Shown here piece after piece: positions 4,349-48,986 of a stretch of 64,000 nucleotides of DNA. The DNA comes from an uncultured Gemmatimonadales bacterium. GTDB taxonomy: Bacteria > Gemmatimonadota > Gemmatimonadetes > Gemmatimonadales > GWC2-71-9. A program made the translations under genes and the position numbers. The stretch spans positions 7,931 to 71,930 of the forward strand of contig CAWEMJ010000005.1 in the NCBI GenBank assembly GCA_963810185.1, written 5' to 3'. Positions within the stretch are counted from its first letter, which is position 1, and every line of letters starts with the position of its first letter. The notes under the pieces were generated by a model that was not told where the DNA came from, searched no databases, and worked only from the letters and a program-made list of their open reading frames with translations.

Positions 4349-4454
4349 GGCGACCAAGGTGGCCGTTGCCGGTCGGATACTCGCAATCATACATCTGGCC
4401 CGATGGCCCCAATCCCGCAGGCCTGCCGCGCGCTGACAGGAGCCCCGTCCCAGC

Positions 4455-4499
4455 GTCCCCCCTCTCCACATGGTGGAGAGGGGGACAGGGGGTGAGGAC
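4455..4499 (+). repeat. Family A hairpin repeat, copy 1, followed by G-rich tail 4505-4537
   Basis: GTCCCCCCTCTCCACATGGTGGAGAGGGGGACAGGGGGTGAGGAC: 12-bp GC stem plus a conserved ACAGGGGGTGAGG box. Confidence 0.9.
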
Positions 4500-4636
4500 A
4501 AATCGGCGGGGCAGCAGGGCAGGGGCGCAGGGCGCAGAAAGGCCTGGTCGCGCGCGATTCTGGTCACCCCAGCGTGATCCAGCGGGCTGAAATTGCCCTC
4601 AGCCCATGGCGTACCATCCCCTTGCCCGAAACTGCA

Positions 4637-5017: not shown

Positions 5018-5356
5018 ATGGTCCTGATTCCTTCGAGTCGTGCGCCCACGCACCCCGGGCAGATGCTGCTCGAGGAGTTCCTCAAGCCGTTCGAAATGAC
5101 CCAGCGCGAACTCGCTACGCAGATCGGGGTGTCCTACCCTCGCATCAACGAGTTGATCCACGGAAAGCGCGGGGTGACCCCGGACACGGCTCTCCGATTG
5201 GCGCAGCTCTTTGGCATGGAGGCGCACTTCTGGCTCAACCTCCAGATGTGCTGGGATCTCTACCAGGCCGCGCACGCACCAGCGGCGCAGGCAATCCGGC
5301 GGATCAGGCGGCTCCCAGCCGCCCGCAGGGCGAGACGATCCCCTACAGCGGCCTGA
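5018..5356 (+). CDS. higA: HigA-type antitoxin, XRE HTH
   Basis: ATG at 5018 with GGAGGAG upstream: HPGQMLLEEFLKPFEMTQRELATQIGVSYPRINELIHGKRGVTPDTALRLAQLFGMEAHFWLNLQ. Confidence 0.85.
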   Translation: MVLIPSSRAPTHPGQMLLEEFLKPFEMTQRELATQIGVSYPRINELIHGKRGVTPDTALRLAQLFGMEAHFWLNLQMCWDLYQAAHAPAAQAIRRIRRLPAARRARRSPTAA

Positions 5357-5357
5357 C

Positions 5358-5400
5358 GTCCCCCCTCTCCGCTTGCCGGAGAGGGGGACAGGGGGTGAGG
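5358..5400 (+). repeat. Family A repeat, copy 2 (compensated stem variant), G-rich tail 5406-5438
   Basis: GTCCCCCCTCTCCGCTTGCCGGAGAGGGGGACAGGGGGTGAGG. Starts 2 nt after the higA stop. Confidence 0.9.
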
Positions 5401-5493
5401 TGAAGGCGGGGCAGCGGGGCAGCAGGGCAGGGTGGCAGTCAACGTGCGTGTCGCTTCAGCGACATCAGCCGAGCCGCGGGTTCACCCGCGGGT

Positions 5494-7749
5494 CTAGCGT
5501 AGTCCAATCCTCCGCACCAGCTCCGCATACCGCGCGTCCTTCCGCAGCGGCCCGTAGCCCGGGTCGAGGTGCAGGTAGATGAGCCCGGCCGAGTGGGCGT
5601 CGAACGCTTTCTGCAGCGACGCGAACGCCCGGTCGAGGTCGCCCAAGGCGGCATACCCCATGGCCAGCACCTCGGCGCGGAGGTACTCCGTCTTCGCCTG
5701 AGTCTCGAGGCGCTCCATGATCGCGGCGGCCTCCTCCGTTTCCCCCAGCGCCACCAGCGGCCGGACGATCATCGCGTCGTAGGATCGCACCGCCGTGCTC
5801 AGCGACTGCCCCTTCCGGAAGGCGTCCAGCGAGGCGTCGAGGTTGCCGCGCGCCAGTTCCGCGGCCCCGATGTCGAGGTACGCCTGGAAGTAGCTCGGCT
5901 CGATCTCCAGCGTCTTCTTGCTCTGCTCGATGGCCGCCTCGTTCCGCTCGGCGTACAGCAGGAAGCGTCCGAGCCACCGGGAGAAGTGCGCCGAGAGCGG
6001 ATCGAGGACCAGCGCCCGCCGCAGCTCGTCGATCGCCTCCACCAGCCGCCCCACCGCCGGCAGCGTGCTGCCGTAGACGAAGTGCGCCTCGGCGTAGTTC
6101 GGGTTGTACTCCACCGCCTTGGCCAGGGCCTGCGACGCGCCCTCGAAATCCCACTCGTACCAGCAGAGCACCTTGCCGATCGAGGTGTGCGCCTCGCCCA
6201 GCGTCGGCTCGAGCTGGACGGCACGCGTGGCAGCCGACTTGGCCTTGGGGTACGCCACCTCCGGCGCCACCCAGTCGTCGGCCAGGTTGCTCCAGCAGTC
6301 GGCGATCCCTGAGTAGGCGCGCGCGTAGCCAGGGTCAGCGTCGAGCGCCTGTTCGAACAGCGACTGCGCCTTGTGGAGGTCGTGCTCGGCCAGCCGGTTG
6401 ACGAAGAAACGCCCCTTGAGGTAGAGGGTGTACGCCTCGAGGTTGTCGGTGGCCGGCTTGACCAGCGGCTCCGCCTGCGCCCCGCCCATCAGCTTGATCT
6501 TGAGCGCGTCCGCGATGGCGCGGCTGATCTCATCCTGGATGGCGAAGACGTCTTCCAGCTGGCGGTCGAAGGTCTCCGACCAGAGCTGGTAGTTGTTGGT
6601 CACGTTCACCAGCTGCGCGGCAATCCGGATCCGGTTGCCGATCTTGCGGACGCTCCCCTCCAGCACCGCGGAGACGCCGAGCCGGCGGCCCACCTCCGCG
6701 ATCTCGACCGACTTCCCCTTGAACGCGAACGACGAGGTGCGCGACGCCACCTGCAGCCCGGGAATCCGCGCCAGGGCGTTGATGATCTCCTCGGTCATCC
6801 CGTCGCTGAAATACTCGTTCTCGGGGTCCGCGCTCATGTTGGCGAGCGGGAGCACCACGATGGACTTCTCGGTCGACGGGACGCCGACCGGCGTGGTGCC
6901 CGACGGGGTGCGCTCCCGCTGCTCGGCCTGGAGCAGCGCCTCGGCGAAGTCGGCGGCCGTCAGGAAGCGGTCCACCGGGGTGCGGGCGAGCGCGCGCACG
7001 ATCGCCTCGTCCACCAGCTCGGGCACGTCGCGCATGGCGCGCGCGTGCGGGATCGGCGCGAGGAACCGCTTGGAGATGATGGCCTGCGCGTTGGGGCCGG
7101 TGTAGGGCTGCTCCCCGGTGAGCATCTCGTACAGGACGCAGCCGAGGGAATAGAGGTCGCTCCGCCCGTCGATCGAGGCGTCGGCGGACGCCTGCTCGGG
7201 GCTCATGTAGGCCGGGGTGCCGACCGCGATGCCGGTCTGGGTGATGGTGCCGTCGGTGCCGCTCAGCGCCTTGCCGATGCCGAAGTCGGCCACCAGGGCG
7301 GCCCCTTCGTGCATCAGGATGTTCTCGGGCTTGACGTCGCGGTGGATGATCCCCTGGCGGTGGGCATAGTCGAGGGCCGCGGCGACCTGGCGGGTGATCC
7401 TGAGCGCCTCGTCGAGCGGGAGCATCGTGCCGCCGGCCATCCGGTCGCGGAGCGACTTCCCGGCCATCATCGGCATGACGTAGAAGTAGAACCCGCCCGC
7501 CTCGCCCGAGTCGAAGACCGGGAGGATGTGCGGGTGGGTCAGCCGGGCCGCCATCCGGATTTCACGATCGAACCGGTCGCCGCCGATTTCGTTGGCGATC
7601 TCGGGCCGGAGGACCTTGACGGCCACCTGGCGCCCGTGGCGGAGGTCGTGGGCCAGGAAGACCACGGCCATGCCGCCTTCGCCAAGTTCTCGTTCGATGG
7701 TGTAGCGGCCGGCGAGCGCAGTCGCGAGGCGTTGCTGGAGGTCGGTCAC
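5494..7749 (-). CDS. Ser/Thr protein kinase with TolB-like and TPR domains (intact, 751 aa)
   Basis: GEGGMAVVFLAHD, VAVKVL, HRDVKPEN, DFGIGK, GTPAYMSPEQ. These are followed by SIVVLPLANMSADPENEYFSDGMTEEIINAL...IRIAAQLV and a C-terminal TPR region. Confidence 0.95.
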   Translation of the reverse strand: MTDLQQRLATALAGRYTIERELGEGGMAVVFLAHDLRHGRQVAVKVLRPEIANEIGGDRFDREIRMAARLTHPHILPVFDSGEAGGFYFYVMPMMAGKSLRDRMAGGTMLPLDEALRITRQVAAALDYAHRQGIIHRDVKPENILMHEGAALVADFGIGKALSGTDGTITQTGIAVGTPAYMSPEQASADASIDGRSDLYSLGCVLYEMLTGEQPYTGPNAQAIISKRFLAPIPHARAMRDVPELVDEAIVRALARTPVDRFLTAADFAEALLQAEQRERTPSGTTPVGVPSTEKSIVVLPLANMSADPENEYFSDGMTEEIINALARIPGLQVASRTSSFAFKGKSVEIAEVGRRLGVSAVLEGSVRKIGNRIRIAAQLVNVTNNYQLWSETFDRQLEDVFAIQDEISRAIADALKIKLMGGAQAEPLVKPATDNLEAYTLYLKGRFFVNRLAEHDLHKAQSLFEQALDADPGYARAYSGIADCWSNLADDWVAPEVAYPKAKSAATRAVQLEPTLGEAHTSIGKVLCWYEWDFEGASQALAKAVEYNPNYAEAHFVYGSTLPAVGRLVEAIDELRRALVLDPLSAHFSRWLGRFLLYAERNEAAIEQSKKTLEIEPSYFQAYLDIGAAELARGNLDASLDAFRKGQSLSTAVRSYDAMIVRPLVALGETEEAAAIMERLETQAKTEYLRAEVLAMGYAALGDLDRAFASLQKAFDAHSAGLIYLHLDPGYGPLRKDARYAELVRRIGLR

Positions 7750-8586: not shown

Positions 8587-8593
8587 TTCCGCC

Positions 8594-8638
8594 GTCCCCC
8601 CTCTCCACATGGTGGAGAGGGGGTCAGGGGGTGAGGAC
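8594..8638 (+). repeat. Family A repeat, copy 3, G-rich tail 8647-8683
   Basis: GTCCCCCCTCTCCACATGGTGGAGAGGGGGTCAGGGGGTGAGGAC, 8 nt after the antitoxin stop. Confidence 0.9.
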
Positions 8639-8689
8639 GAGTCGACGGGCCAGCGGGGCAGGGAGGCAGTGAGGCAGGGTGGCCGTAGC

Positions 8690-8749: not shown

Positions 8750-8794
8750 GTCCCCCTTCTCCACATGGTGGAGAGGGGGAAAGGGGGTGAGGAC
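8750..8794 (+). repeat. Family A repeat, copy 4
   Basis: GTCCCCCTTCTCCACATGGTGGAGAGGGGGAAAGGGGGTGAGGAC. Confidence 0.9.
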
Positions 8795-9877: not shown

Positions 9878-10627
9878 ATGCGTCACCCCCTCCGCATCGC
9901 CGTGCTCGCGCTGATGACGTCGTTTTCCGCCGGCACTGCCGCCGCACAGCAACCCGCGCCGGCACCGAAGCCGGTCTGGGTCAACCTCAAGTCCGGCGTG
10001 TACCACTGCCCCGGCACCGAGCACTACGGGACCACCAGCGACGGAGAATATCTCCCCGAAGCCACCGCCATCGGCCGGGGCTATTCCCCGAATGGCGGCC
10101 GCCGCTGCAGCGAGGATGCGCCTTCCCGGTTGACGGACGCTCCAGGTGCCGCGCGCCCGGTCCCCACGCTCCTTCCCGATTCCGGTCCTCCGATGCCGAG
10201 CGGCGGCTTGACCGACTGCGTGGTCCTGGTGCTCAAGGACGGCGACACCATCGAGTGCAAGGCCCAGGGCGCCGTGCGGCTCATCGGCATCGACACCCCC
10301 GAGCGCGACCAGGTGCCCTTCGGCACGGCCGCCACGGCGGGGATGGCCGCCCTCCTCCCGGCCGGCGCCACCGTTCAGCTCAGTCCCGACAAGACCCAGC
10401 GCGACCGCTACGGCCGGCTCCTGGCCTATGCCTGGTACGAGGGCGCGTCGGTCAACTGGCTCATGATCCGCCAGGGATGGGCCGTGAGCCTGCGCTACCC
10501 GCCCGACACCCGCTACGCGGACTGGTTCGACAAGGCGGAGGCACGCGCCCACGCGGAACAGCGCGGCCTCTGGCGGGTCGATGGGTTCTCCTGCCGGCCG
10601 AACAAGCACCGCGCGAAACAGTGCTAG
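9878..10627 (+). CDS. Secreted thermonuclease (SNase)-like nuclease
   Basis: ATG at 9878, signal peptide MRHPLRIAVLALMTSFSAGTAAAQ. SNase-like core: DGDTIECK...VRLIGIDTPE...DRYGRLLAYAWYEG..VNWLMIRQGWA...AEARAHAEQRGLW. Confidence 0.8.
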   Translation: MRHPLRIAVLALMTSFSAGTAAAQQPAPAPKPVWVNLKSGVYHCPGTEHYGTTSDGEYLPEATAIGRGYSPNGGRRCSEDAPSRLTDAPGAARPVPTLLPDSGPPMPSGGLTDCVVLVLKDGDTIECKAQGAVRLIGIDTPERDQVPFGTAATAGMAALLPAGATVQLSPDKTQRDRYGRLLAYAWYEGASVNWLMIRQGWAVSLRYPPDTRYADWFDKAEARAHAEQRGLWRVDGFSCRPNKHRAKQC

Positions 10628-10630
10628 GTC

Positions 10631-10674
10631 GTCCCCCTCTCCACAGGGTGGAGAGGGGGACAGGGGGTGAGGAC
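10631..10674 (+). repeat. Family A repeat, copy 6, G-rich tail to 10698
   Basis: GTCCCCCTCTCCACAGGGTGGAGAGGGGGACAGGGGGTGAGGAC, 4 nt after the nuclease stop. Confidence 0.9.
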
Positions 10675-16399: not shown

Positions 16400-16448
16400 G
16401 GGGCGGGGCAGCGGGGCAGTGACTGCCCCCCTGCCCAGCAGCCCCGCC
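16400..16448 (+). terminator. Imperfect GC hairpin built from GGGGCAGC units
   Basis: GGGGCGGGGCAGCGGGGCAG-TGAC-TGCCCCCCTGCCCAGCAGCCCCGCC directly after the 16393 stop. No U-tract. Confidence 0.35.
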
Positions 16449-21842: not shown

Positions 21843-21855
21843 TCGCACCCTTCCC

Positions 21856-21909
21856 GTCACCCCCGCGAAAGCGTTGGCCCAGCCGTCACCCCCGCGAAAG
21901 CGGGGGTCC
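21856..21909 (+). repeat. Family B hairpin repeat: one half copy plus one full copy
   Basis: GTCACCCCCGCGAAAGCG...GTCACCCCCGCGAAAGCGGGGGTCC. Confidence 0.8.
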
Positions 21910-22006
21910 AGATTCCTCCCCCGCGTTCCCGCCTTGACTCGTGCTTGACTCCCAACCGGTATCTCCCCGGTGCATTCGATTCCGAATCCACTCCGGGAGG
22001 TGCCCC

Positions 22007-30136: not shown

Positions 30137-30206
30137 CAGTCCTCAGTCCTCAGTCCCCGGCCCTCAGTCCTCAGTCCTCAGTCCTCAGTCCTCAGTCCTC
30201 AGTCCC
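30137..30206 (+). repeat. Heptamer tandem array, CAGTCCT x 10 (unit 4 degenerate)
   Basis: Direct read: 3 units, CGGCCCT, then 6 units. It fills the whole AKR-ispG intergenic space. Confidence 0.95.
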
Positions 30207-30209
30207 TAG

Positions 30210-30215
30210 TATATT
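30210..30215 (+). promoter_or_regulatory. -10 box TATATT, 7 nt before the ispG ATG (leaderless candidate)
   Basis: TAGTATATTTCTCCGATG; no SD between the box and the ATG at 30222. Confidence 0.45.
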
Positions 30216-30221
30216 TCTCCG

Positions 30222-31454
30222 ATGCCTCCCCTCTCCCGCCGCCAGACCGTCACCACCCGCATCGGGCCGGTGCAGGTCGGTTCCTGCCATCCCATCGTCG
30301 TGCAGTCGATGACCAACACCGACACCGCCGACGTGGTCGGGACGGTGCGCCAGGCAGCCGCCCTCGCGCGGGCCGGCAGCGAGCTGGTGCGCGTCACCGT
30401 CAACAACGACGAGTCGGCGCGCGCCGTCCCGGACATCGTCGAAGGACTGGACCGGATCGGCGTGCAGGTGCCGATCATCGGCGACTTCCACTACAACGGG
30501 CATCTCCTCCTCACCAAGTATCCCGCCTGCGCCGCGGCGCTCGCCAAGTACCGGATCAACCCGGGCAACGTCGGCGGCAAGCGGCGCGACGAGCACTTCC
30601 GCGCCATCATCGAGGTGGCGCTCGCGCACGACCGGCCGGTGCGCATCGGGGTCAACTGGGGGTCGCTCGACCAGCAGCTCCTCACCGAGCTGATGGACGC
30701 GAATCATCGGTCGAGCGCGCCGCGCGAGGCGCGGGAGGTCACCCTCGACGCCATGGTCGAGAGCGCGATCCGATCGGCCGCGCTCGCCGAGGCCACCGGG
30801 ATGGCGCACGACCGCATCATTCTGTCCGCCAAGGTCTCGGCGGTGCAGGACCTGGTGGATGTGTACCGCCTGCTCGCGGCGCGCTGTGATTTTCCCCTCC
30901 ACCTCGGCCTGACCGAGGCGGGTCTCGGCACCAAGGGCATCGTGGCGAGCACCGCGGGCCTGGCCATCCTGCTGCAGGAGGGCATCGGCGACACCATCCG
31001 CGTCTCCCTCACGCCGGCGCCCGGCGGCGACCGCACCGAAGAGGTGCAGGTGGCCCAGCAGATCCTGCAGTCGCTCGACCTCCGGAGCTTCACGCCGCAA
31101 GTCACCAGCTGCCCCGGCTGCGGCCGCACCACCAGCACCTTCTTCCAGTCGATGGCGCAGGACATCGAGCGCTACCTGCGGGAGCAGATGCCGGTGTGGC
31201 GCGAGGCGCGGCCGGGCGTCGAGTCGATGCGGGTCGCCGTCATGGGCTGCGTGGTCAACGGGCCGGGAGAATCGAAGCACGCCGACATCGGCATTTCCCT
31301 GCCCGGCACCGCGGAGGATCCCCGGGCCCCCGTGTACGTGGACGGGCAGTTGCACGTCACCCTGAGCGGGGAACGCATCGTGCCGGAGTTCCTGACCCTG
31401 CTGGAGGACTACGTCCAGCGCCGGTACGCGCCGGTGGAACCGGCGGCGCGCTAG
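30222..31454 (+). CDS. ispG: 4-hydroxy-3-methylbut-2-en-1-yl diphosphate synthase
   Basis: 410 aa: [15 protein letters not shown]...RVTVNN...INPGN...TSCPGCGRT...[11 protein letters not shown]. Confidence 0.95.
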
Positions 31455-33701: not shown

Positions 33702-34191
33702 ACAGCGGTTCCCAACACGAGCTACAACATGCTGCCCCGGCGGAACCCATATTGGGTGCCTCCGGGGCGCTTTTATGCAGTGATTCCGCATCTTTGACCC
33801 CGGGTAACGACACTGTCACCAGTTTCTTTTCCACATATAATGCGGATCTGTAAGTGATGTTAATAATAAAGTTAAGAGATCCACTTAAAGTGGAAAGTTA
33901 AGACGACCTCTAGTGCTTTGTCCCGCAACGGGTAATAACGCTCTTTCCACGGTTTCCACGCCGCTTCTGGGGGAAACTTTGCCCATTCCACACCGACGTG
34001 GATAGTCACCGTTGAGCCACCGGGCAGGCCGCCGACCCGGCTGTTGGGAAGTGGAAATGATATATGCACATCATCCCCAAATGAGGATATCACAGGTGCG
34101 GTCGTCGGGCCGGCACCCTCCGGCTCTGGTGTACGGGAATCGGGCAGTTGGGACGGGTGTGGATAACTCGGGAATGGGGACGGAGCGGGGA

Positions 34192-34280
34192 GGGAGGAGG
34201 GGATCGTCGGCGCAAGAAGTTCGCAGGGGGGTCGGGCGGCGGGGTTAGAGAACTTCCGGAGCCGACGACCCCGACGACCA
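34192..34280 (+). repeat. Family D ~90-bp repeat, copy 2
   Basis: GGAGGAGGGGATCGTCGGCGCAAGAAGTTCGCAGGGGGGTCGGGCGGCGGGGTTAGAGAACTTCCGGAGCCGACGACCCCGACGACCAC. Confidence 0.85.
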
Positions 34281-34432: not shown

Positions 34433-34522
34433 GGCGCTCCCTCCCGGCGCCGTCCCGCTTCCCGGCTGCCCCGCTGCCTCGGAACTCGTTACTATCCCCT
34501 CACTCCCCTAATTGAGGTCCGC

Positions 34523-41080: not shown

Positions 41081-44031
41081 CTACTGCGCGGTGTGGACCT
41101 CGACCACGAGGTTGCTCAGCTGGTCCGGTTTGTCCGGTTGAGCGGTGACCTGAAGAATGGACCCCGTGAGGCGCCGCGCCGAGAGATCTCGCGGATCCAC
41201 CTCGAGGGTGTAACGGCCCGGCTTGACTCCCAGCACATAGAAACTGCCGTCGGAGAAGGTGGCGATCGCCGTCTGCTTCCCGTTGGCCTTGTTGGTGAGC
41301 ACGAGCGTGACGTTCGGCAGCGGCGTGCCGTCGCAGACCACGCGTCCCTCGAGCACGGCGCCCGTCACCAGCGGCAGGTCGAGCTGGCGGTACGCGTTCG
41401 GCGGAGGCTGCAGGCTGGCGGAAGTGAACGCCGGCACGTACTGCGGATTGTCGAGGGTCGTCGAGTCGATCTGGACCAGCACCGGTTCGAACGCCGGAAT
41501 GTCCCAGACGTGGTACCGACCGAGGCTGTCGGTGCGCGCCGTGAAGGAACCGACGATGACCCGCACCCCGCCGACCCCGGGTTCGCCCGGGTCCTGCCTG
41601 CCGTTGGCATTGTCGTCCACGAACACGACGCCCGACACGCCTGAGCGCTGGAGGCCGGGGTTCGGATTGGCGGTGACGCGGCCCTGGTGCTTGTCGTAAA
41701 TGAGCGCGCCCTGCACCGTCTGGATGACGCCCCCCTGGCCGACCGTCGGCGCCACCGCGGTGGTGGTCGCCTGCAGGGTGGGCAGGTACGAGACCAGCGA
41801 AAACGTGAACGTCGTGCCGGGACGTCGCGGTGCCAGGCGGCACCACCCTCGATGCGGAGCGCCGGACCGAAGCTCTTCGCCACGGTGGCCGCCGCCAGGT
41901 TGAACCCGTCGCCACCGCCCGCCTCGAGGTCGCCCCGGAACCAGAGCCCGCCGAGCACCGAGCCCCAGGAGGGGCGGCCGTTGGCGTAGGCGGAGAGGCC
42001 GATGAACGACGCGCGGGACGCTTCGCCGACAGTGGGTGACCAGCCGCTCGAAGCGCACGTAGGGATAGAGCCGGACGCCGTCGGCCTGCACCGACGACTG
42101 CAGCCGCGCGCGGCTGGCGTCCATGTCCACCCCGTCATCGATCTCCGCGGTGCCCTGCAGGTAGAACGAGGTGAGGAAGGGGAGCGGGCGGAGGAACGCG
42201 TCGAAGAGCCACTGCGAGCGGCGCCCCTGCGGCGCGATCACCGACCGCGCGACCGTCTCGTCGAACGCGGTGTATCCCGCCGCGAGGCGGAAATTCAGCG
42301 AGGGTTCGAGGCGCACCGCGCCGCGAAGCCACCCGCTGCCGATCGCCTCGCCTTCCAGCGTGACCGAGTTGCCGATCAGCCCCGTGGCGACCGCGTAGGG
42401 ATGGATCAGGTCGGAGAGACTGTCCCGTGAGTACCCCTCCACGCCGCCGCGGACCGTGACCCGCCGGGAGAGGCCGTAGTGCAGGTCGGCGTTCAGCGCC
42501 CCGTTACAGAGCGTCGAGATGCACTCGCCCGCCGCGATGCCGTACTCGAACTGCTTGTACGGCAGCTGCTCGCTGACGCACGCGATAGGTCTGGTTGAAC
42601 CGGCGCACCTGACCCGTGGGGCCGTACGCGATGAAGTCCACCGGGTTTTCGCCGTAGCCCACCGGCAGCGTGATGGAATAGTCGCCGCCCGGGCCGATCG
42701 AGTCGAAGGCCACCAGCTGGCCGCCCGAGTACGCCTCGAGCTGCCACCCCGGCTCGAGCCGGCCGTAGTAGTCGAGCTGCCCCACGTACGAGGGGCGGAT
42801 GTACGGCGAGTTGGTCACCGCAACACCGCGGATGCCCGCGTAGCGCGGGCCGGTGAGTGTGGCGGTGCCGAGCGTGAGCTGCTTGACGTACTTGTTGTCG
42901 ATCCAGACGCCCTTCCACGAGGCCGCGAACTCCGACGTGCCGGCGTCCAGGCTGCCCAGGCTGCGCACGCCGACTTCGAGCGCGCCGCCCGCCACCTGCG
43001 CGCCCGAGTGCGAACCGGTAGGAGGACCCGCCCACCAGGTTGTCTGAGAGCGGGAACGCCACGTCGTAGTCGAGCACCAGCCCGTCCCACTTGGTCCGGG
43101 CCGTCCCGAGCGTGGTGTCGGGCCGCGCGCCGTAGCGCTCCGCCAGCAGGGCGCGCATCTGGTCCCGCCACATGCGGCGGGCCACCGGAAGCGAGTCGGG
43201 ATTGAGCACGGTGACCGCCAGGTCGGCCCAGCTGACTTCGAAGTCGAGCGTCCAGCATCGCTCCCGAGCGGGCTGCGTGGCCATGTACAGCTCGCCGTCC
43301 CGGAAAATGACGTCGGCGGCCCCCACCGGTACGCGCCGCGACCCGATCGTCACGCTGTCGCTTCCCGCCGCAATCCGGATGTCCTCGCCACTCGGCTCGA
43401 GCCGCGCCTCGAACACCCCCGCGGGCGAGAGCGTGTAGCTGATCTCCGCCAGGTCGAAGAACGCCGTGAGCGGCACGAGGGCCATCTCAGCGTCTCGATA
43501 GGCCGCCACCGTCCGGCTCACGAGGCGCCCGAGCGCGAGGTCGATGAGGACGGGCTCGGGGCCGGAGGGGCGGGGCAGCGGGGCGGCGGGGCTAGTCGCG
43601 GCTGGCGCCGCGGGCGCAGGCAGCGGGGCAGCGGGGCTGGCTGGCAGTTCAGGCTCAGCCCGGGCCAGGGGTGCCTCGACGGGCGGCTGGGGAGGCGGAG
43701 TCGGTGTTGGGCGCGGCGTTTGGGGTGCGAGGGTGGGTCGGAGCGCGCCGCGAGTGGGGCGGGGCAGCGGGGCAGCGGGGCCGGGGGGCGGCCCAGGCGT
43801 TGTCACGACCGCAACGGTCGGTGCCGCGGGGCGTGCTGGGGTCGGTGCGGGAAGTGGCTCGTAGGCGGTGTGGGGCACCGAGTCGGGCGCGGTGCGGACC
43901 GCGGTCGGCGGTGCAGGCCCGCGTGCCCTGTCGATCAGGGACACGATTTTCTCGCCGCCGACGAAGACGCCGACGGCAAAGAGCACGAACAACAGTGCAG
44001 CGACCAGCTTGGCCAAGAGCCCCACCAGCAT
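41081..44031 (-). pseudogene. Usher-sized outer-membrane-like protein of the pilus operon, about 4 frameshifts
   Basis: Stitched from ORFs 42493-44031, 42504-42995, 41081-42442 and 41365-42138, with switches near 43000, 42572, 42050 and 41825. N-terminal TM helix, Pro/Ala linker, beta-rich core, and C-terminal SdrD-B-like (VFVDDNANGRQDPGEPGVGGVRV) and CarboxypepD_reg-like domains. The usher assignment rests on size, position and N-domain pattern only. Confidence 0.55.
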
Positions 44032-45879: not shown

Positions 45880-45953
45880 AGGGCCCGGAAGGGCGCGCCG
45901 GCGGCGCGGGTTAGCGCCCACACCGCCGGCGCCACCGCCTCACGGTGTCCGGA

Positions 45954-46470
45954 CTAGAGCCCGGTGTACACAACCGCCATGGTGACCGTGCCGTTGTACG
46001 GTGCCGGCGGCCTGGGCCACGGTGGGGGTCACGGTGGCGCCGAGCCACACGAAGACGCGTGCCGGCGCCGCCGAGGTTGGTCGTCACGGGGGCCGCGCTC
46101 GCCGTGAAGGCGGTCTGGCTCGCCTGGGGTGTTGGTGGCGAACTGGCCGCCGAGTCCAGGTGCCGATGGCCATGGTGTTGCCGGCAGGCCGTGTGCAGGG
46201 TGGCCGGCAGCGTGAAGGTCAGGATGACCTGCGCGCCAGCGCTGCCCGGCGATGCGTGAACCGGCCGGCGGTCGGCGGCGGTCGGGGCGATCGTCTTGCA
46301 CAATGCCCGGGAAGACGTTGCCGAAGTCGAGGCGACGCGGCGCCGGTGACGGTCAGCGGGGTCAGGACGGTGGCGGTGGCGGTGATGTTGGCGCTCTGGG
46401 CCTGGGCCACGGAGGCCCCGACGAGGGTGAGCGCCAGCACGGCGAGGGACAACTTCGAGGCGGTGGTCAT
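45954..46470 (-). pseudogene. Fimbrial subunit A, about 5-6 frameshifts
   Basis: ATG at 46470: MTTASKLSLAVLALTLVGASVAQAQSANITATATVLTPLTVTG | LDFGNVFPG | ...GAQVILTFTLPATL... | ...YNGTVTMAVVYTGL* (stop at 45954-45956). Confidence 0.55.
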
Positions 46471-46808
46471 GTCTGCTGGTCCTTTGGTAGAGGGAACTGC
46501 TGTGGGACTGCACACGAAAAGGCTCGGAAATCGCGCCCGACTCCGGGCGCACACATCGACGGACTGGAAGGGCAAGGGGCGTGCCGATATCAGCGCGGGT
46601 GTCATCCGGCGCCCAGTAATATCAAGAATCGTCTGAATCAACGGTGCCAAGTCCGTACAGGACTTGAGGATAGGAAGGTATCACATCTGTCAAAATAGTC
46701 GACATTTGACTCCAAAATGTGACGGCCACAAGGGCATAGCATAACCCGTTACGGCGGAAGCAATTATAACACTTTGCCCCCCCGGAGCGCAATCGCTGGC
46801 ATACGCGC

Positions 46809-46876
46809 GGGCGGGCGGGGCAGCGGGGCAGGGAGGCAGGGGGGCACCGACGGCAGGGCAGCGGGGCAGCGGGGCC
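46809..46876 (+). repeat. Degenerate GGGGCAGC-type G-rich block (plus-strand orientation)
   Basis: GGGCGGGGCAGCGGGGCAGGGAGGCAGGGGGGCACCGACGGCAGGGCAGCGGGGCAGCGGGGCC. Inverted relative to the array at 47029-47158. Confidence 0.85.
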
Positions 46877-47028
46877 GGTGAAATAGCGTCCACCCAGTCG
46901 AGTGCGGAGTGTGCATCAGCCCGGGGAAAGTCGGGGTCCGTGGACTCCCGACCACCGCATTCTGCCAGCCTCATCCAGCCCGATACCTGCAGCCTATTGC
47001 GCGTCTGGGGAAAACGCGCAACCTTCGC

Positions 47029-47158
47029 GCTGCCCCGCTGCCCCGCTGCCCCGCTGCCCCGCTGCCCCGCTGCCCCGCTGCCCCGCTGCCCCGCTGCCCC
47101 GCTGCCCCGCTGCCCCGCTGCCCCGCTGCCCCGCTGCCCCGCTGCCCCGCTGCCCCGC
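47029..47158 (+). repeat. Perfect octamer tandem array, GCTGCCCC x 16
   Basis: Direct read, 130 nt with no variant units. The complement is (GGGGCAGC)16. Confidence 0.97.
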
Positions 47159-47162
47159 CTAC

Positions 47163-47171
47163 TGTTATATT
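47163..47171 (+). promoter_or_regulatory. Extended -10 (TGtTATATT) positioned for a transcript starting at G47178
   Basis: TG at 47163-47164 and TATATT at 47166-47171. The -35 position falls inside the octamer array. Confidence 0.45.
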
Positions 47172-47177
47172 CCCCTC

Positions 47178-47274
47178 GCCCCAGGTCCACAGGTCGCCGG
47201 CGCGTGAACCGCGTCAGGACCTCGCCGGTAGCAGCGCTAAACGATGTCCGGTTTCGCTGTGGGTCGCCTGGGGC
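47178..47274 (+). ncRNA. ffs: Signal recognition particle RNA (small 4.5S type)
   Basis: 97 nt. Terminal helix GCCCCAGG/CCTGGGGC, then CCACAG/CTGTGG and CCGG/CCGG. Conserved domain IV strands ACCGCGUCAGGACC ... GGUAGCAGCGCUAAACGAUG align with E. coli ACCAGGUCAGGUCC GGAA GGAAGCAGCCAAGGCAGAUG. Lies directly upstream of dnaX, as in many bacteria. The apical loop reads UCGCC instead of GNAR. Confidence 0.7.
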
Positions 47275-47315
47275 ACTTCTCTTTCCTCTCCCGTCCTTCC
47301 GCAGGTCGTATCGCC

Positions 47316-48986
47316 ATGGCCATCGCTCTCGCACGCCGGTACCGCCCACGGCGCTTCGCCGACCTCCTGGTGCAGGACCATGTCGCCGCCGCCCTCCGCG
47401 GTGCCATCGCCAGCGGGCGGCTCGGCCACGGCTACCTCCTGACCGGCCCCCGCGGCGTCGGCAAGACCACCGCCGCCCGCATCCTCGCCATGGCGCTCAA
47501 CTGCGAGCGCCGCGAGACCGTCACCCCCGCCGGCGAACCCTGCGGCGAGTGCGAGAACTGCCTCCGCATCTGGAACGGCTCCGCCAATCTCGACGTGATC
47601 GAAATCGACGCCGCCAGCAACCGCGGCGTCGACGACGCCCGCGAGCTCCGCGAGCGCGCCATGTACGCCGCCTCCCAGGAGGGGCACCACAAGGTGTACA
47701 TCGTGGACGAGGCGCACATGCTCACCCGCGAGGCGTGGAACGCGCTCCTCAAGATCCTCGAGGAGCCGCCCCCGGGCGTGGTGTTCGTCTTCGCCACCAC
47801 CGAGCCGGCCAAGATCTTCAATACCGCCGCGCCGGTGCTCTCCCGGCTGCAGCGCTTCGACTTCCGCCGCATCGGGCCCGCCGCCATCCGCACCCGCCTC
47901 ACGCAGGTCCTCGCCGAGGAAAAGCTCGCGGCGGACGACGACGCCCTGACCCTCATCGCGCGGCACGCCGACGGCGGCATGCGCGACGCGCTCTCCGTGC
48001 TCGATCAGTGCCTCTCCTTCGGCGAGGGCGCCGTCACCGCCGAGCGGGTGCGCGAAGTCCTCGGCCTCGTCGGCGATGAGCAGTACGCCGAGGTGCTGCG
48101 GGTGGTCACCGAGCGCGATCCCGCCGGGGTGTTTCCCCTCGTGGCGCGGCTGCTCGACGCCGGCGCCGACCTCGCGGAGTTCCTGAACGGCACCGGCGAG
48201 ATGTTGCGTTCGCTGATGATGCTGCAGGTCGGCGTCGACCCCGAGGAAATCACCGAGTCGCTGCGCGCCGCCCTGGTGGCATACCGCGACCAGCTCACCG
48301 AGGGCGACGTTCTCCGGATGCTCCGGCTCCTCGCCGAGAGCGAAACCGCCGTGCGCCGGAGCGGCAACGCCCGCCTCGCGGTGGAAACCCTGCTGCTCCG
48401 CTGGACCATGATGGACCGGACGGTGGACCTCGCCGCCCTCATCGCCGGCGGGTCGACCGGCCCCGCTGCCCCGCTGCCCACGCCCGCGGCGCGAGCCGCG
48501 CAGGCCCCGCTGCCCCGCCGCGCCGCGAAGGCGGCGCCTGCGGCCCCCGGCCCCGCTGCCTCGCTGCCCCCTCGCGCGTCGGCCGCGCCGGCATCGGCGC
48601 CTGTCGTCGGCCTTGAAGCCGGACCCCTGGCGGCCGCATGGGATACGGTCGTCGAGCGCGGCCGCGCGCAAGGGTCCTTTTTGGGTGCCGCCCTCGCCGT
48701 CTGCAAGCCGGTGCGGATCGACGGCCAGGTGGTGCTGCTCGAACTCACCGAGGAGAATCCGATGTACCGGGAGGCGCTCGATCGGCAGGCCGCCGCCGTC
48801 GAGGAGATCCTCTCGGCGCTCGCCGGGACGCCCGCGCGGATGAAAGTGGCGCCCGCTGCCTCGGCGGCGCGCCCGGAGCGCCTGACCGAGGAAGGCGCCC
48901 GCGCGGAGCGGCTCACCAAGGTGCGGAAGAAGGACCCCTCGCTCGATGTGGCGGCCACCGTGCTCGACCTCGAGGTCCTGGACTAG
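47316..48986 (+). CDS. dnaX: DNA polymerase III subunit gamma/tau
   Basis: ATG at 47316: MAIALARRYRPRRFADLLVQDHV...GYLLTGPRGVGKTT...CGECENC...YIVDEAHML. The ATG at 47244 would overlap ffs. Confidence 0.95.
   Translation: MAIALARRYRPRRFADLLVQDHVAAALRGAIASGRLGHGYLLTGPRGVGKTTAARILAMALNCERRETVTPAGEPCGECENCLRIWNGSANLDVIEIDAASNRGVDDARELRERAMYAASQEGHHKVYIVDEAHMLTREAWNALLKILEEPPPGVVFVFATTEPAKIFNTAAPVLSRLQRFDFRRIGPAAIRTRLTQVLAEEKLAADDDALTLIARHADGGMRDALSVLDQCLSFGEGAVTAERVREVLGLVGDEQYAEVLRVVTERDPAGVFPLVARLLDAGADLAEFLNGTGEMLRSLMMLQVGVDPEEITESLRAALVAYRDQLTEGDVLRMLRLLAESETAVRRSGNARLAVETLLLRWTMMDRTVDLAALIAGGSTGPAAPLPTPAARAAQAPLPRRAAKAAPAAPGPAASLPPRASAAPASAPVVGLEAGPLAAAWDTVVERGRAQGSFLGAALAVCKPVRIDGQVVLLELTEENPMYREALDRQAAAVEEILSALAGTPARMKVAPAASAARPERLTEEGARAERLTKVRKKDPSLDVAATVLDLEVLD

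What the first reader, a model, noticed from the sequence alone, without database searches (positions are those of the whole stretch)
46809..47158. Perfect (GCTGCCCC)x16 array forming the upstream promoter region of the SRP RNA, mirrored by an inverted G-rich block 150 nt away
Positions 47029-47158 are 16 uninterrupted 8-nt units; the complementary strand is (GGGGCAGC)16. That gives sixteen G4 tracts separated by 4-nt loops, a textbook G-quadruplex-forming sequence with room for about four stacked quadruplexes. The array ends 5 nt before an extended -10 (TGtTATATT, 47163-47171), which is placed to start transcription at G47178, the 5' end of the predicted ffs. The -35 position therefore lies inside the array. 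A degenerate block of the same octamer in the opposite orientation sits at 46809-46876. The two blocks could pair as a long stem or cruciform enclosing about 150 nt of unique sequence with its own hairpins (for example GCGCGT...ACGCGC at 47000-47020). An 8-nt unit with no sequence variants implies recent expansion and probable length polymorphism.
Basis: partly seen in the sequence, partly recalled or inferred. Interest (0 to 1): 0.65.

Follow-up and report, generated by a model that had tools for sequence, protein, structure and literature searches.

The report
Expanded octamer repeat in SRP-RNA promoter
A perfect 16-copy, 8-base repeat sits directly in front of the signal-recognition-particle RNA gene of a Gemmatimonadales bacterium. 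It is the freshly expanded local copy of a 7-8-base tandem-repeat habit that runs through this whole bacterial order, not a one-off G-quadruplex switch.

Summary
(GCTGCCCC)16 occupies 47029-47156 at 100% identity. It ends 4-6 nt before TGTTATATT, which lies 6 nt upstream of an Rfam-supported ffs gene (47178-47277). A degenerate inverted block lies 152 nt upstream.

- The octamer is a dispersed family, present at about 12 other sites in the window.
- Sister species carry the same G-block / spacer / C-block / -10 / ffs layout, with 4-9 degenerate units.
- Two assemblies that are 99.9% identical differ by exactly two units.
- In 0.9 Mb of Gemmatimonadales DNA, tandem arrays are almost all of period 7 or 8, and many form inverted pairs.
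- Other lineages carry arrays with different, non-G-rich units at the same ffs position.

The array's only T falls on the most conserved -35 position of 69 ffs promoters (TGCCCC, 17-bp spacer). Whole-unit gain or loss therefore leaves the promoter geometry unchanged.

Best reading: a slippage-expanded long simple-sequence repeat. Its proximal unit supplies a weak -35 backed by an extended -10, and the remaining units are tolerated passengers. G4 potential is real by sequence rules but is not the conserved property. A cruciform is unlikely. Function and exact copy number remain untested.

The parts
47029..47158 (+). Perfect (GCTGCCCC)x16 array plus a trailing GC. The minus strand reads (GGGGCAGC)16.
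   Evidence: TRF: 16.4 copies, 100%. Sequence read directly. G4Hunter -1.88 and four PQS.
47143..47148 (+). -35-like hexamer TGCCCC inside the penultimate unit, 17 bp upstream of TATATT.
   Evidence: T at -35 in 57 of 69 Gemmatimonadales ffs promoters, consensus TTCC at -35..-32. Same register in L002, L081, L003, L074 and L082-84. The same TGCCCC-N17 module occurs at the pyk promoter, 34467-34495.
47163..47171 (+). Extended -10 TGTTATATT (hexamer 47166-47171).
   Evidence: TATATT at -12..-7 is nearly invariant in 69 loci. It is conserved with its flanks in relatives.
47178..47277 (+). ffs, the small SRP (4.5S-type) RNA gene.
   Evidence: Rfam RF00169, 41.3 bits, full length. Syntenic hits in relatives.
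47316..48986 (+). dnaX (tau). It lies 38 nt after ffs with no terminator-like hairpin between them, so it is probably co-transcribed.
   Evidence: Pfam DNA_pol3_delta2, DNAX_ATPase_lid, DNA_pol3_gamma3 and DnaX_C. Translation. Co-transcription is inferred.
46809..46876 (+). Degenerate inverted block (GCGGGGCA-like, about 8 units), partner of the array.
   Evidence: TRF 46815-46875. Inverted repeats I1-I25. Present in L002, L074, L083 and L084.
46877..47028 (.). 152-nt spacer. Contains the clade-conserved motif CACCGCATTCTGC (46953-46965) and a non-conserved 8-bp hairpin (46998-47022).
   Evidence: Alignment A1. Fold z-score 0.2, so not structured beyond chance.
46763..46792 (-). Divergent promoter: TTGCGC (46792..46787), 18-nt spacer, TGTTATAAT (46771..46763). 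It points at the minus-strand secreted-protein gene.
   Evidence: Read. Conserved in L002, L074, L083 and L084. Promoter function is inferred.
45911..46471 (-). Upstream divergent gene, 186 aa, with an N-terminal signal-peptide-like sequence and no Pfam family.

Best explanation
The array is a long simple-sequence repeat. It is a recently slippage-expanded, homogenised block of a C-rich octamer family (GCTGCCCC / CCTGCCCC) that is dispersed through this Gemmatimonadales genome. It occupies an old repeat-bearing site immediately upstream of the ffs -10.

The promoter-proximal units do real work. The penultimate unit supplies the -35-like hexamer TGCCCC at the canonical 17-bp distance from TATATT, and an extended -10 (TGn) compensates for its weakness. 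Because the -35 is itself a repeat unit, gain or loss of whole units upstream leaves core promoter geometry untouched. Copy number is therefore free to drift, from 4 to 16 units across the clade.

The distal units and the inverted G-rich partner belong to an order-wide class of paired 7-8-nt arrays that fill unconstrained DNA at gene boundaries, right up to the first constrained element (a -10 or a start codon). In most lineages they lie between an upstream gene's stop codon and the ffs promoter, where they may act as hairpin terminators or insulators.

Shown here: the anatomy, the dispersal, the synteny, the period-7/8 bias, the excess of inverted pairs, the -35 register and the length variation between near-identical assemblies. 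Inferred: slippage as the generating process, functional use of TGCCCC as a -35, neutrality of the extra units, and any terminator or insulator role.
For: - Perfect array, with degenerate 4-9-unit arrays at the identical syntenic position in L001, L002, L003, L074 and L081-L084.
- L002 and L081 are 99.9% identical over 1200 nt but differ by 16 nt in the array, and both keep TGCCCC at -35.
- The same octamer occurs at about 12 further sites: 40 hits against 0.45 expected. These include an intergenic hairpin at 16402-16448, four composite REP-like elements and the pyk promoter.
- Period spectrum in 0.9 Mb: 47 arrays of period 7 and 60 of period 8, against 5, 8 and 12 for periods 6, 9 and 12. Shuffles give fewer than 1 each.
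- 28 inverted against 3 direct neighbouring pairs.
- Arrays with unrelated units abut the ffs -10 in at least 16 of 70 loci.
- Array ends are followed by a -10-like hexamer 13 times more often than random positions.
- ffs promoter logo: TATATT at -12..-7 and T at -35 in 57 of 69 loci.
- Long SSRs with 5-11-nt units, heptamers being commonest, are a described class attributed to polymerase slippage (Mrazek 2007, as summarised in PMC4679880).
Against: - No reads, transcript ends or reporter data exist, so the TSS, the use of TGCCCC as a -35 and the neutrality of copy number are all untested.
- At 8-10% flank divergence, retention of the blocks within the clade says nothing about selection either way.
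- The strong excess of inverted pairs, and the purine-rich-arm-first bias (25 of 28), are not explained by simple slippage. They hint at a function or a specific generating mechanism.
- In this window the upstream gene is divergent, so the terminator or insulator idea has no obvious transcript to act on.
- TGCCCC matches the order's TTCC consensus at only 3 of 4 positions.
Confidence: 0.55

Rival explanations
1. G-quadruplex / i-motif switch. Negative supercoiling behind the highly transcribed ffs promoter and the divergent promoter extrudes G4s on the template strand and i-motifs on the C-rich strand. This would tune ffs-dnaX transcription.
For: The sequence meets canonical G4 rules: G4Hunter -1.88 over 128 nt, four tandem PQS, the longest such region in the window. 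The inverted partner is also G4-prone, at +1.69. Both blocks lie between divergent promoters.
Against: G4-prone sequence is common in this 69% GC window, with 73 G4Hunter regions. At the same position other Gemmatimonadales carry arrays that cannot form G4s: GTCCGACC, CTTCTCAC, CACTTGTC, CATTG-type, and CAGTCCT at ispG. Within the clade, L074 has CCTGCCTC units with only G2 tracts. There is no experimental support.
Confidence: 0.12
2. The paired arrays are functional boundary elements. They could be binding arrays for a lineage-specific repeat-binding or nucleoid protein. They could also be hairpin terminators or insulators that shield the ffs promoter from neighbouring transcription.
For: Inverted pairs are strongly over-represented, 28 against 3 direct. 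In lineages with a co-directional upstream gene, the pair sits between its stop codon and the ffs -10 (L016, L022, L029, L038 and L057). A tight octamer hairpin lies between two genes at 16402-16448. The paired region folds better than shuffles, z = -4.6. Heptamer arrays in Nostoc and Beggiatoaceae have been proposed to bind regulators.
Against: Unit sequences differ between loci within one genome and between species, which argues against a single sequence-specific binder. RNA folds show no advantage for the transcribed strand: plus is more stable in only 9 of 28. In this window no transcript is expected to cross the pair, because the upstream gene is divergent. The 152-nt loop is long for a terminator.
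Confidence: 0.15
3. Contingency locus: unit-number changes switch or grade ffs/dnaX expression (promoter phase variation).
For: The repeat is perfect, long and slippage-prone, and it lies in a promoter. A length difference exists between near-identical assemblies.
Against: The repeat is not between -35 and -10. The -35 is itself a unit, so whole-unit changes keep the 17-bp spacing. ffs and dnaX are essential housekeeping genes, not surface or restriction-modification genes (established knowledge). The same arrays occur at many non-promoter sites.
Confidence: 0.04
4. Cruciform or long stem between the two blocks, enclosing the 152-nt spacer.
For: Arms are 43 nt at 84% and 24 nt at 96% complementary. 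The MFE of single-stranded DNA pairs the blocks, at -118.5 kcal/mol, z = -4.6.
Against: The long stem is absent from the centroid because many registers compete. Cruciform extrusion in duplex DNA is strongly disfavoured by large central spacers (established knowledge). The arms are unequal, 68 against 130 nt.
Confidence: 0.03
5. The copy number, or the perfection, of the array is an assembly artefact.
For: A 128-nt perfect 8-nt repeat is close to the largest k-mers and read lengths of short-read assemblers, so the count could be collapsed or mis-set (inference). No reads were available.
Against: An octamer array exists at this exact position in eight independent assemblies of related organisms. 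The flanks join seamlessly to conserved sequence on both sides.
Confidence: 0.08

Closest known systems
Long simple sequence repeats (LSSR) with 5-11-nt units in prokaryotic genomes (Mrazek, Guo & Shah 2007, as summarised in PMC4679880 and PMC11868660)
   Same: Head-to-tail repeats of a short unit, far longer than chance. They are lineage-sporadic, mostly intergenic, have unit lengths centred on 7 nt and are attributed to polymerase slippage.
   Different: Here period 8 is as common as period 7. Units are GC-rich. Arrays frequently come as inverted pairs and invade the coding linker of dnaX. I found no paper in the searchable library that describes such arrays in Gemmatimonadota.
Cyanobacterial STRR / tandem heptamer repeats and Beggiatoaceae TAACTGA repeats (PMC4679880; bioRxiv 10.1101/2022.06.06.494920)
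   Same: Dispersed short tandem arrays at many intergenic sites in one genome. They lie close to promoters or start codons, include essential genes, and have copy numbers of 2 to more than 40. Their function is unresolved.
   Different: Those families share one or a few heptamer units genome-wide and sit mostly between promoter and start codon. Here there are many different units per genome, octamers as well as heptamers, arrays that lie upstream of and overlap the -35, and inverted pairing as the rule.
SSR-controlled phase-variable promoters (for example the Moraxella uspA1 poly-G and uspA2 AGAT repeats cited in PMC4679880; the Haemophilus hif TA repeats and Neisseria poly-G promoters are cited from my own knowledge)
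   Same: A slippage-prone perfect repeat within a promoter region.
   Different: In those systems the repeat lies between -35 and -10 or in the 5' UTR, so unit number changes spacing or mRNA. Here the repeat includes the -35 and extends upstream, so spacing is invariant. The target is housekeeping.
REP/BIME-type intergenic palindromic elements
   Same: A dispersed, GC-rich, hairpin-forming intergenic family at gene ends. In this window four octamer tracts run directly into a conserved hairpin, CCCCCTCTCC-N7-GGAGAGGGGGG.
   Different: The ffs array is a pure tandem repeat without the conserved hairpin core. No RAYT-type transposase link was examined.
Promoter G-quadruplexes
   Same: Meets the G3+N1-7 x4 rule, has a high G4Hunter score, and sits on the template strand just upstream of a TSS.
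   Different: The G-tracts are not conserved at the orthologous site across the order, and folding has not been shown.

Membership tests
Long simple sequence repeat (LSSR, 5-11-nt unit) | Head-to-tail copies of a 5-11-nt unit, much longer than expected by chance in that genome. | tested here: met
   16.4 copies at 100%, TRF score 262. 40 hits against 0.45 expected for the two-unit pattern. Shuffles give fewer than 1 array per period in 0.9 Mb.
Long simple sequence repeat (LSSR, 5-11-nt unit) | Copy-number variation between close relatives (slippage). | tested here: met
   4-16 units across clade members. L002 and L081 are 99.9% identical in the flank but differ by 2 units. Caveat: these are different assemblies and no reads were seen.
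STRR / TAACTGA-type dispersed tandem repeat family | The same unit tandemly repeated at many separate, mostly intergenic loci of one genome. | tested here: met
   About 12 further sites of the GCTGCCCC/GCGGGGCA unit in 64 kb, mostly at gene ends.
STRR / TAACTGA-type dispersed tandem repeat family | Heptamer unit shared across the lineage. | tested here: not met
   The unit here is an octamer. Units differ between loci and between species.
Sigma-70-type extended -10 promoter | TGn immediately upstream of a TATAAT-like hexamer, placed 5-8 nt before the RNA 5' end. | tested here: met
   TGTTATATT at 47163-47171, with the Rfam 5' end at 47178. The hexamer is conserved in 69 loci. The generic two-hexamer scan found no canonical -35/-10 promoter, as expected for a weak -35.
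Sigma-70-type extended -10 promoter | Transcription actually starts there. | not testable with these tools
   No transcript-end data are available.
Phase-variable SSR promoter (contingency locus) | The repeat lies between -35 and -10, or in the 5' UTR or ORF, so unit number changes spacing or frame. | tested here: not met
   The array spans -150 to -20 and contains the -35. Spacing stays at 17 bp in variants with different unit numbers.
Promoter G-quadruplex element | At least four G3+ tracts with loops of 7 nt or less, and a G4Hunter score of at least 1.5. | tested here: met
   Four tandem PQS and a score of -1.88.
Promoter G-quadruplex element | G-tracts conserved at the orthologous site. 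| tested here: not met
   Units without G or C runs occupy the same position in other lineages. L074 has only G2 tracts in its proximal units.
Promoter G-quadruplex element | Folding in vitro or in vivo, with an effect on transcription. | not testable with these tools
   Needs CD/NMM assays, chemical probing and reporters.
Cruciform-forming inverted repeat | Near-perfect arms with a short central spacer. | tested here: not met
   The arms are 84-96% complementary but 152 nt apart and unequal in length. The long stem is absent from the centroid.
REP/BIME-like element | A conserved imperfect palindrome core repeated across intergenic regions. | tested here: not met
   The conserved hairpin core seen at 4.4-10.7 kb is absent from 46800-47160.

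The most novel reading that the evidence does not exclude
Gemmatimonadales possess a so far undescribed genome-wide system of paired, inverted 7-8-nt tandem arrays. It could be produced by a lineage-specific repeat-generating or end-repair process, or be read by a structure-specific factor. The arrays would mark gene boundaries, overlap promoters such as ffs, and in several lineages form a long hairpin inside the dnaX ORF exactly at the tau/gamma domain junction, where they could program a truncated clamp-loader subunit. The ffs array would then be one visible, recently expanded node of that system rather than passive slippage debris.
Probability: 0.12. Interest if true: 0.8.

Novelty: new variant of a known kind. 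Interest (0 to 1): 0.48.

Why it matters
The function of dispersed short tandem repeats in bacteria (STRR heptamers, TAACTGA arrays, LSSRs) is still unresolved in the papers read here. By my own recollection the STRR families date from about 1990. This locus adds a GC-rich, octamer-based, inverted-pair version in an under-studied phylum. It is anchored to an essential, highly expressed gene with an easily mapped promoter. The array is embedded in the promoter so that copy number can change without changing core geometry. That gives a clean test of whether such arrays are neutral slippage products, structural (G4 or hairpin) elements or protein-binding platforms. For annotation, it warns that long ORFs called through such arrays are spurious, and that array length in MAGs may be unreliable.

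Tried and rejected
- Exact-protein look-ups to find same-species contigs spanning the array failed. Both dnaX starts and the upstream gene were tried. YbaB gave only 1-2 kb contigs that stop short of ffs. Same-species polymorphism could therefore not be measured.
- Rfam at permissive E-values found nothing but ffs in 46300-47350. There are no tRNAs in the window.
- Test for RNA-level selection on the transcribed strand (G:U against A:C asymmetry): no plus-strand advantage, 9 of 28.
- Spacer structure: not above chance, z = 0.2.
- The window's own dnaX linker is not significantly structured, z = -0.67, although other lineages have paired arrays there.
- The generic sigma-70 two-hexamer scan finds no promoter here. 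That reflects the weak -35, so I did not read it as absence of a promoter.
- Literature searches for Gemmatimonadota arrays or for the octamer string gave nothing relevant.
- In alignment A1 the L083 row was entered in the wrong orientation and should be ignored.
- Considered and rejected: a sigma-54 promoter at TGGCA (46797), because there is no GC element at the right spacing; a dif or integron-type site for the conserved CACCGCATTCTGC motif, because I saw no resemblance beyond a few bases.

Full report
**1. The observation**

The sequence is as described. TRF reports 47028-47158 with period 8, 16.4 copies, 100% matches and no indels. Reading the bases shows 16 complete GCTGCCCC units at 47029-47156, followed by GC, CTAC and then TGTTATATT at 47163-47171. 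Rfam places a full-length bacterial small SRP RNA at 47178-47277 (41.3 bits, gathering score 40). Its first base is 6 nt after the TATATT hexamer. dnaX starts 38 nt after ffs (ATG 47316) and is followed by ybaB and recR.

The inverted block is real. TRF finds 46815-46875 with 7.9 degenerate GCGGGGCA units. Its arms are 84-96% complementary to the array, and the gap between blocks is 152 nt. None of this is chance. The two-unit pattern with up to 2 mismatches occurs 40 times in the window, against 0.45 expected.

**2. It is not unique to ffs**

About a dozen of those 40 hits lie outside the array. They are at 4508, 5406, 8647, 16403, 19705, 20177, 34454, 43570, 43759, 48457 (inside dnaX) and 54204.
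- Most are at gene ends.
- One forms a tight hairpin whose two arms are octamer runs, between two genes at 16402-16448.
- Four run directly into a conserved REP-like hairpin, CCTCACCCCCTGTCCCCCTCTCC-N7-GGAGAGGGGGGAC.
- One sits in front of pyruvate kinase with its own inverted partner 240 nt upstream.
- A different unit, (CAGTCCT)x10, fills the space between a stop codon and the TATATT of ispG.

**3. Organism and relatives**

DnaX places the window in the Gemmatimonadales. The best hits share 82-85% amino-acid identity and no identical genome was found.

The closest relatives are L002, L074, L083 and L084, which are 92-94% identical in ffs and the 5' part of dnaX. They have the same layout:
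- a minus-strand secreted-protein gene;
- a conserved AT-rich leader and a minus-strand TTGCGC-N18-TGTTATAAT promoter;
- a degenerate G-rich octamer block;
- a spacer carrying the conserved motif CACCGCATTCTGC;
- a degenerate C-rich octamer block of 4-9 units;
- then CTGTTATATTCCCCTC and ffs.

The site is therefore old. The window's perfect x16 array is a recent homogenised expansion.

L002 and L081 are 99.9% identical over 1200 nt downstream but differ by 16 nt, exactly two units, in the array. This is the best available evidence for rapid length change. The caveat is that they are separate assemblies.

**4. An order-wide habit**

I pooled 80 dnaX neighbourhoods with the window, 0.9 Mb in total. 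Tandem arrays of at least 3 copies are almost all of period 7 (47) or period 8 (60). Periods 6, 9 and 12 give 5, 8 and 12, and composition-matched shuffles give fewer than 1 each.

Of 159 arrays, 28 neighbouring pairs are inverted copies of the same unit and only 3 are direct. The purine-rich arm comes first in 25 of 28 pairs in the dnaX orientation. Many of these positions are homologous, so they are not 28 independent events.

At least 16 of 70 ffs genes have an array within 400 nt upstream, usually touching the -10. The units are unrelated: GTCCGACC, CTTCTCAC, CACTTGTC, CGTCCTCTCC, GGGCTCC, CGTCTCC and others.

Array ends are followed by a -10-like hexamer 13 times more often than random positions. 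In the ffs-dnaX spacer, arrays run up to the dnaX start codon. Arrays thus fill intergenic DNA up to the first constrained element.

**5. The promoter**

Sixty-nine aligned ffs upstream regions show TATATT at -12..-7 (55-67 of 69 per position, apart from the A at -9 with 46). They also show a -35 element led by T at -35 (57 of 69), with consensus TTCC at -35..-32, giving a 17-bp spacer.

In the window the single T of the octamer falls exactly on -35 (TGCCCC, 47143-47148). L002 and L081 carry the same hexamer despite their two-unit difference. L003, L074 and L082-84 keep T at -35. The chance of that register is 1 in 8.

The pyk promoter independently shows TGCCCC-N17-TACTAT-CCCCTC (34467-34501). 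Only about 15 of 69 promoters have the TG extension, and the window's clade is among them. This is consistent with compensation for a weak -35.

The consequence is the opposite of a phase-variable promoter: whole-unit changes cannot alter the -35/-10 spacing.

**6. Non-B DNA**

The minus strand of the array meets every sequence rule for G4 formation. It has four tandem PQS and a G4Hunter score of -1.88, and it is the longest of 73 such regions in this 69% GC window.

The comparative data show that G-richness is not what persists at this site.

Single-stranded DNA folding pairs the two blocks (-118.5 kcal/mol, z = -4.6). The stem is absent from the centroid because many registers compete. The spacer itself is unstructured (z = 0.2). 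With a 152-nt centre and unequal arms, cruciform extrusion in duplex DNA is unlikely on established kinetics.

RNA folds of 28 paired arrays show no advantage for the transcribed strand (9 of 28). There is therefore no signature of RNA-level selection.

**7. Interpretation**

The best-supported account is a slippage-expanded long simple-sequence repeat of a dispersed octamer family, sitting on an old repeat site. Its proximal unit serves as the -35 of an extended -10 ffs promoter, which probably also drives dnaX. The other units are tolerated passengers, and the inverted partner makes the locus one of many paired arrays at gene boundaries in this order.

Slippage, -35 use and neutrality are inferences. 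I put this account at about 0.55.

The excess of inverted pairs and the arm-order bias are not explained by slippage alone. They keep open a boundary-element or protein-binding role (0.15) and a G4 or i-motif role (0.12). Phase variation (0.04), a cruciform (0.03) and a mis-assembled count (0.08) are minor.

**8. Comparison with the known**

The closest described class is Mrazek's long SSRs with 5-11-nt units, where heptamers predominate and polymerase slippage is invoked (summarised in PMC4679880; PMC11868660). Also close are the dispersed heptamer families of cyanobacteria, Beggiatoaceae and some Bacteroidetes, whose function remains speculative.

The differences here are:
- octamers are as frequent as heptamers;
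- composition is GC-rich;
- many different units occur per genome;
- inverted pairing is systematic;
- the array overlaps the -35 rather than lying in the 5' UTR;
- arrays occur inside a coding linker.

I found no paper in the searchable library that describes such arrays in Gemmatimonadota. I therefore class the finding as a new variant of a known kind, with moderate interest.

Noticed in passing
window 48457-48570 (dnaX codons ~381-418); L018, L026, L037, L040, L064, L070 at ~7115-7380: The disordered linker of DnaX lies between domain III and the C-terminal tau domain. In the window it is encoded by octamer repeats, and in several other lineages by an inverted pair of 8-9-nt arrays, for example (GGCGGAC..)n ... 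(GTCCGCC..)n, up to 17.9 copies in L037. In 41 of 74 loci the most stable 160-nt RNA window of dnaX starts at nt 1080-1320. L070 has an in-frame stop between the arms. This is the position of the tau/gamma junction in E. coli. The window's own linker is not significantly structured (z = -0.67).
   Followed up: partly
window 43577-43640 (-) and 48457-48520 (+): A ~64-nt octamer-containing segment, about 88% identical, is shared in the sense orientation by the dnaX linker and by a Pro/Ala-rich stretch of an unrelated 512-aa ORF (42493-44031, no Pfam family). Both encode PAAPLP..PAA..PLPR. It could be a repeat block inserted into two coding linkers, or convergence.
   Followed up: partly
window 4437-4537, 5340-5438, 8589-8683, 10600-10667 (all minus orientation), plus 8753-8787: A composite dispersed element: a C-rich octamer tract running into a conserved hairpin, CCTCACCCCCTGTCCCCCTCTCC-ACCATGT-GGAGAGGGGGGAC. 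It sits at the 3' ends of genes and is REP-like or terminator-like. A similar core is visible upstream of ffs in L079.
   Followed up: partly
window 30137-30224: (CAGTCCT)x9.9 fills the gap between a stop codon and TATATT (30210-30215). The ispG (GcpE) ATG at 30222 follows only 6 nt later, suggesting a leaderless mRNA whose entire upstream promoter region is a heptamer array.
   Followed up: partly
window 34169-34196, 34437-34501: A second copy of the ffs architecture. A G-rich block, a 240-nt spacer and a C-rich octamer block are followed by TGCCCC-N17-TACTAT-CCCCTC in front of pyruvate kinase. This is nearly the same promoter module as ffs.
   Followed up: partly
window 46472-46792 (minus strand): A strongly conserved non-coding region between the divergent promoter (TTGCGC-N18-TGTTATAAT, 46792..46763) and the secreted-protein ATG at 46471. 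It includes the hairpin AAGTCC-GTACA-GGACTT (46649-46665) and a terminator-like site at 46540-46524. It is conserved in L002, L074, L083 and L084, and no Rfam family matches. It is a candidate cis-regulatory leader or small RNA.
   Followed up: partly
window 46953-46965: CACCGCATTCTGC is the only conserved island in the spacer between the two blocks. It is present in L002, L074 and L082-84 and in variant form in L003. Its distance to the ffs promoter changes with array length, from about -95 in L002 to about -215 here. It is unexplained.
   Followed up: no
window 16402-16448: A hairpin whose arms are octamer runs, GGCGGGGCAGCGGGGCAG-TGA-CTGCCCCCCTGCCCAGCAGCCCCGCC. It lies immediately after a stop codon and before the next co-directional gene.
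   Followed up: no
window 46690-48079: Several long mechanical ORFs run through the array: 46940..48079 (+, 379 aa), 46902..47207 (+) and 46690..47349 (-). Unit-number differences that are not multiples of 3 nt between relatives show that the region is non-coding, so such ORFs would be spurious gene calls.
   Followed up: partly
window 21854-21925: A 29-nt tandem repeat, about 2.3 copies, whose unit contains its own hairpin: CACCCCCGCGAAAGCGGGGG.
   Followed up: no
L073 7223-7254; L070 10164-10193: L073 carries (CCCCAGT)x4.6. L070 carries (AGGACTG)x4.3, the reverse complement of the window's CAGTCCT unit. These may be coincidence.
   Followed up: no
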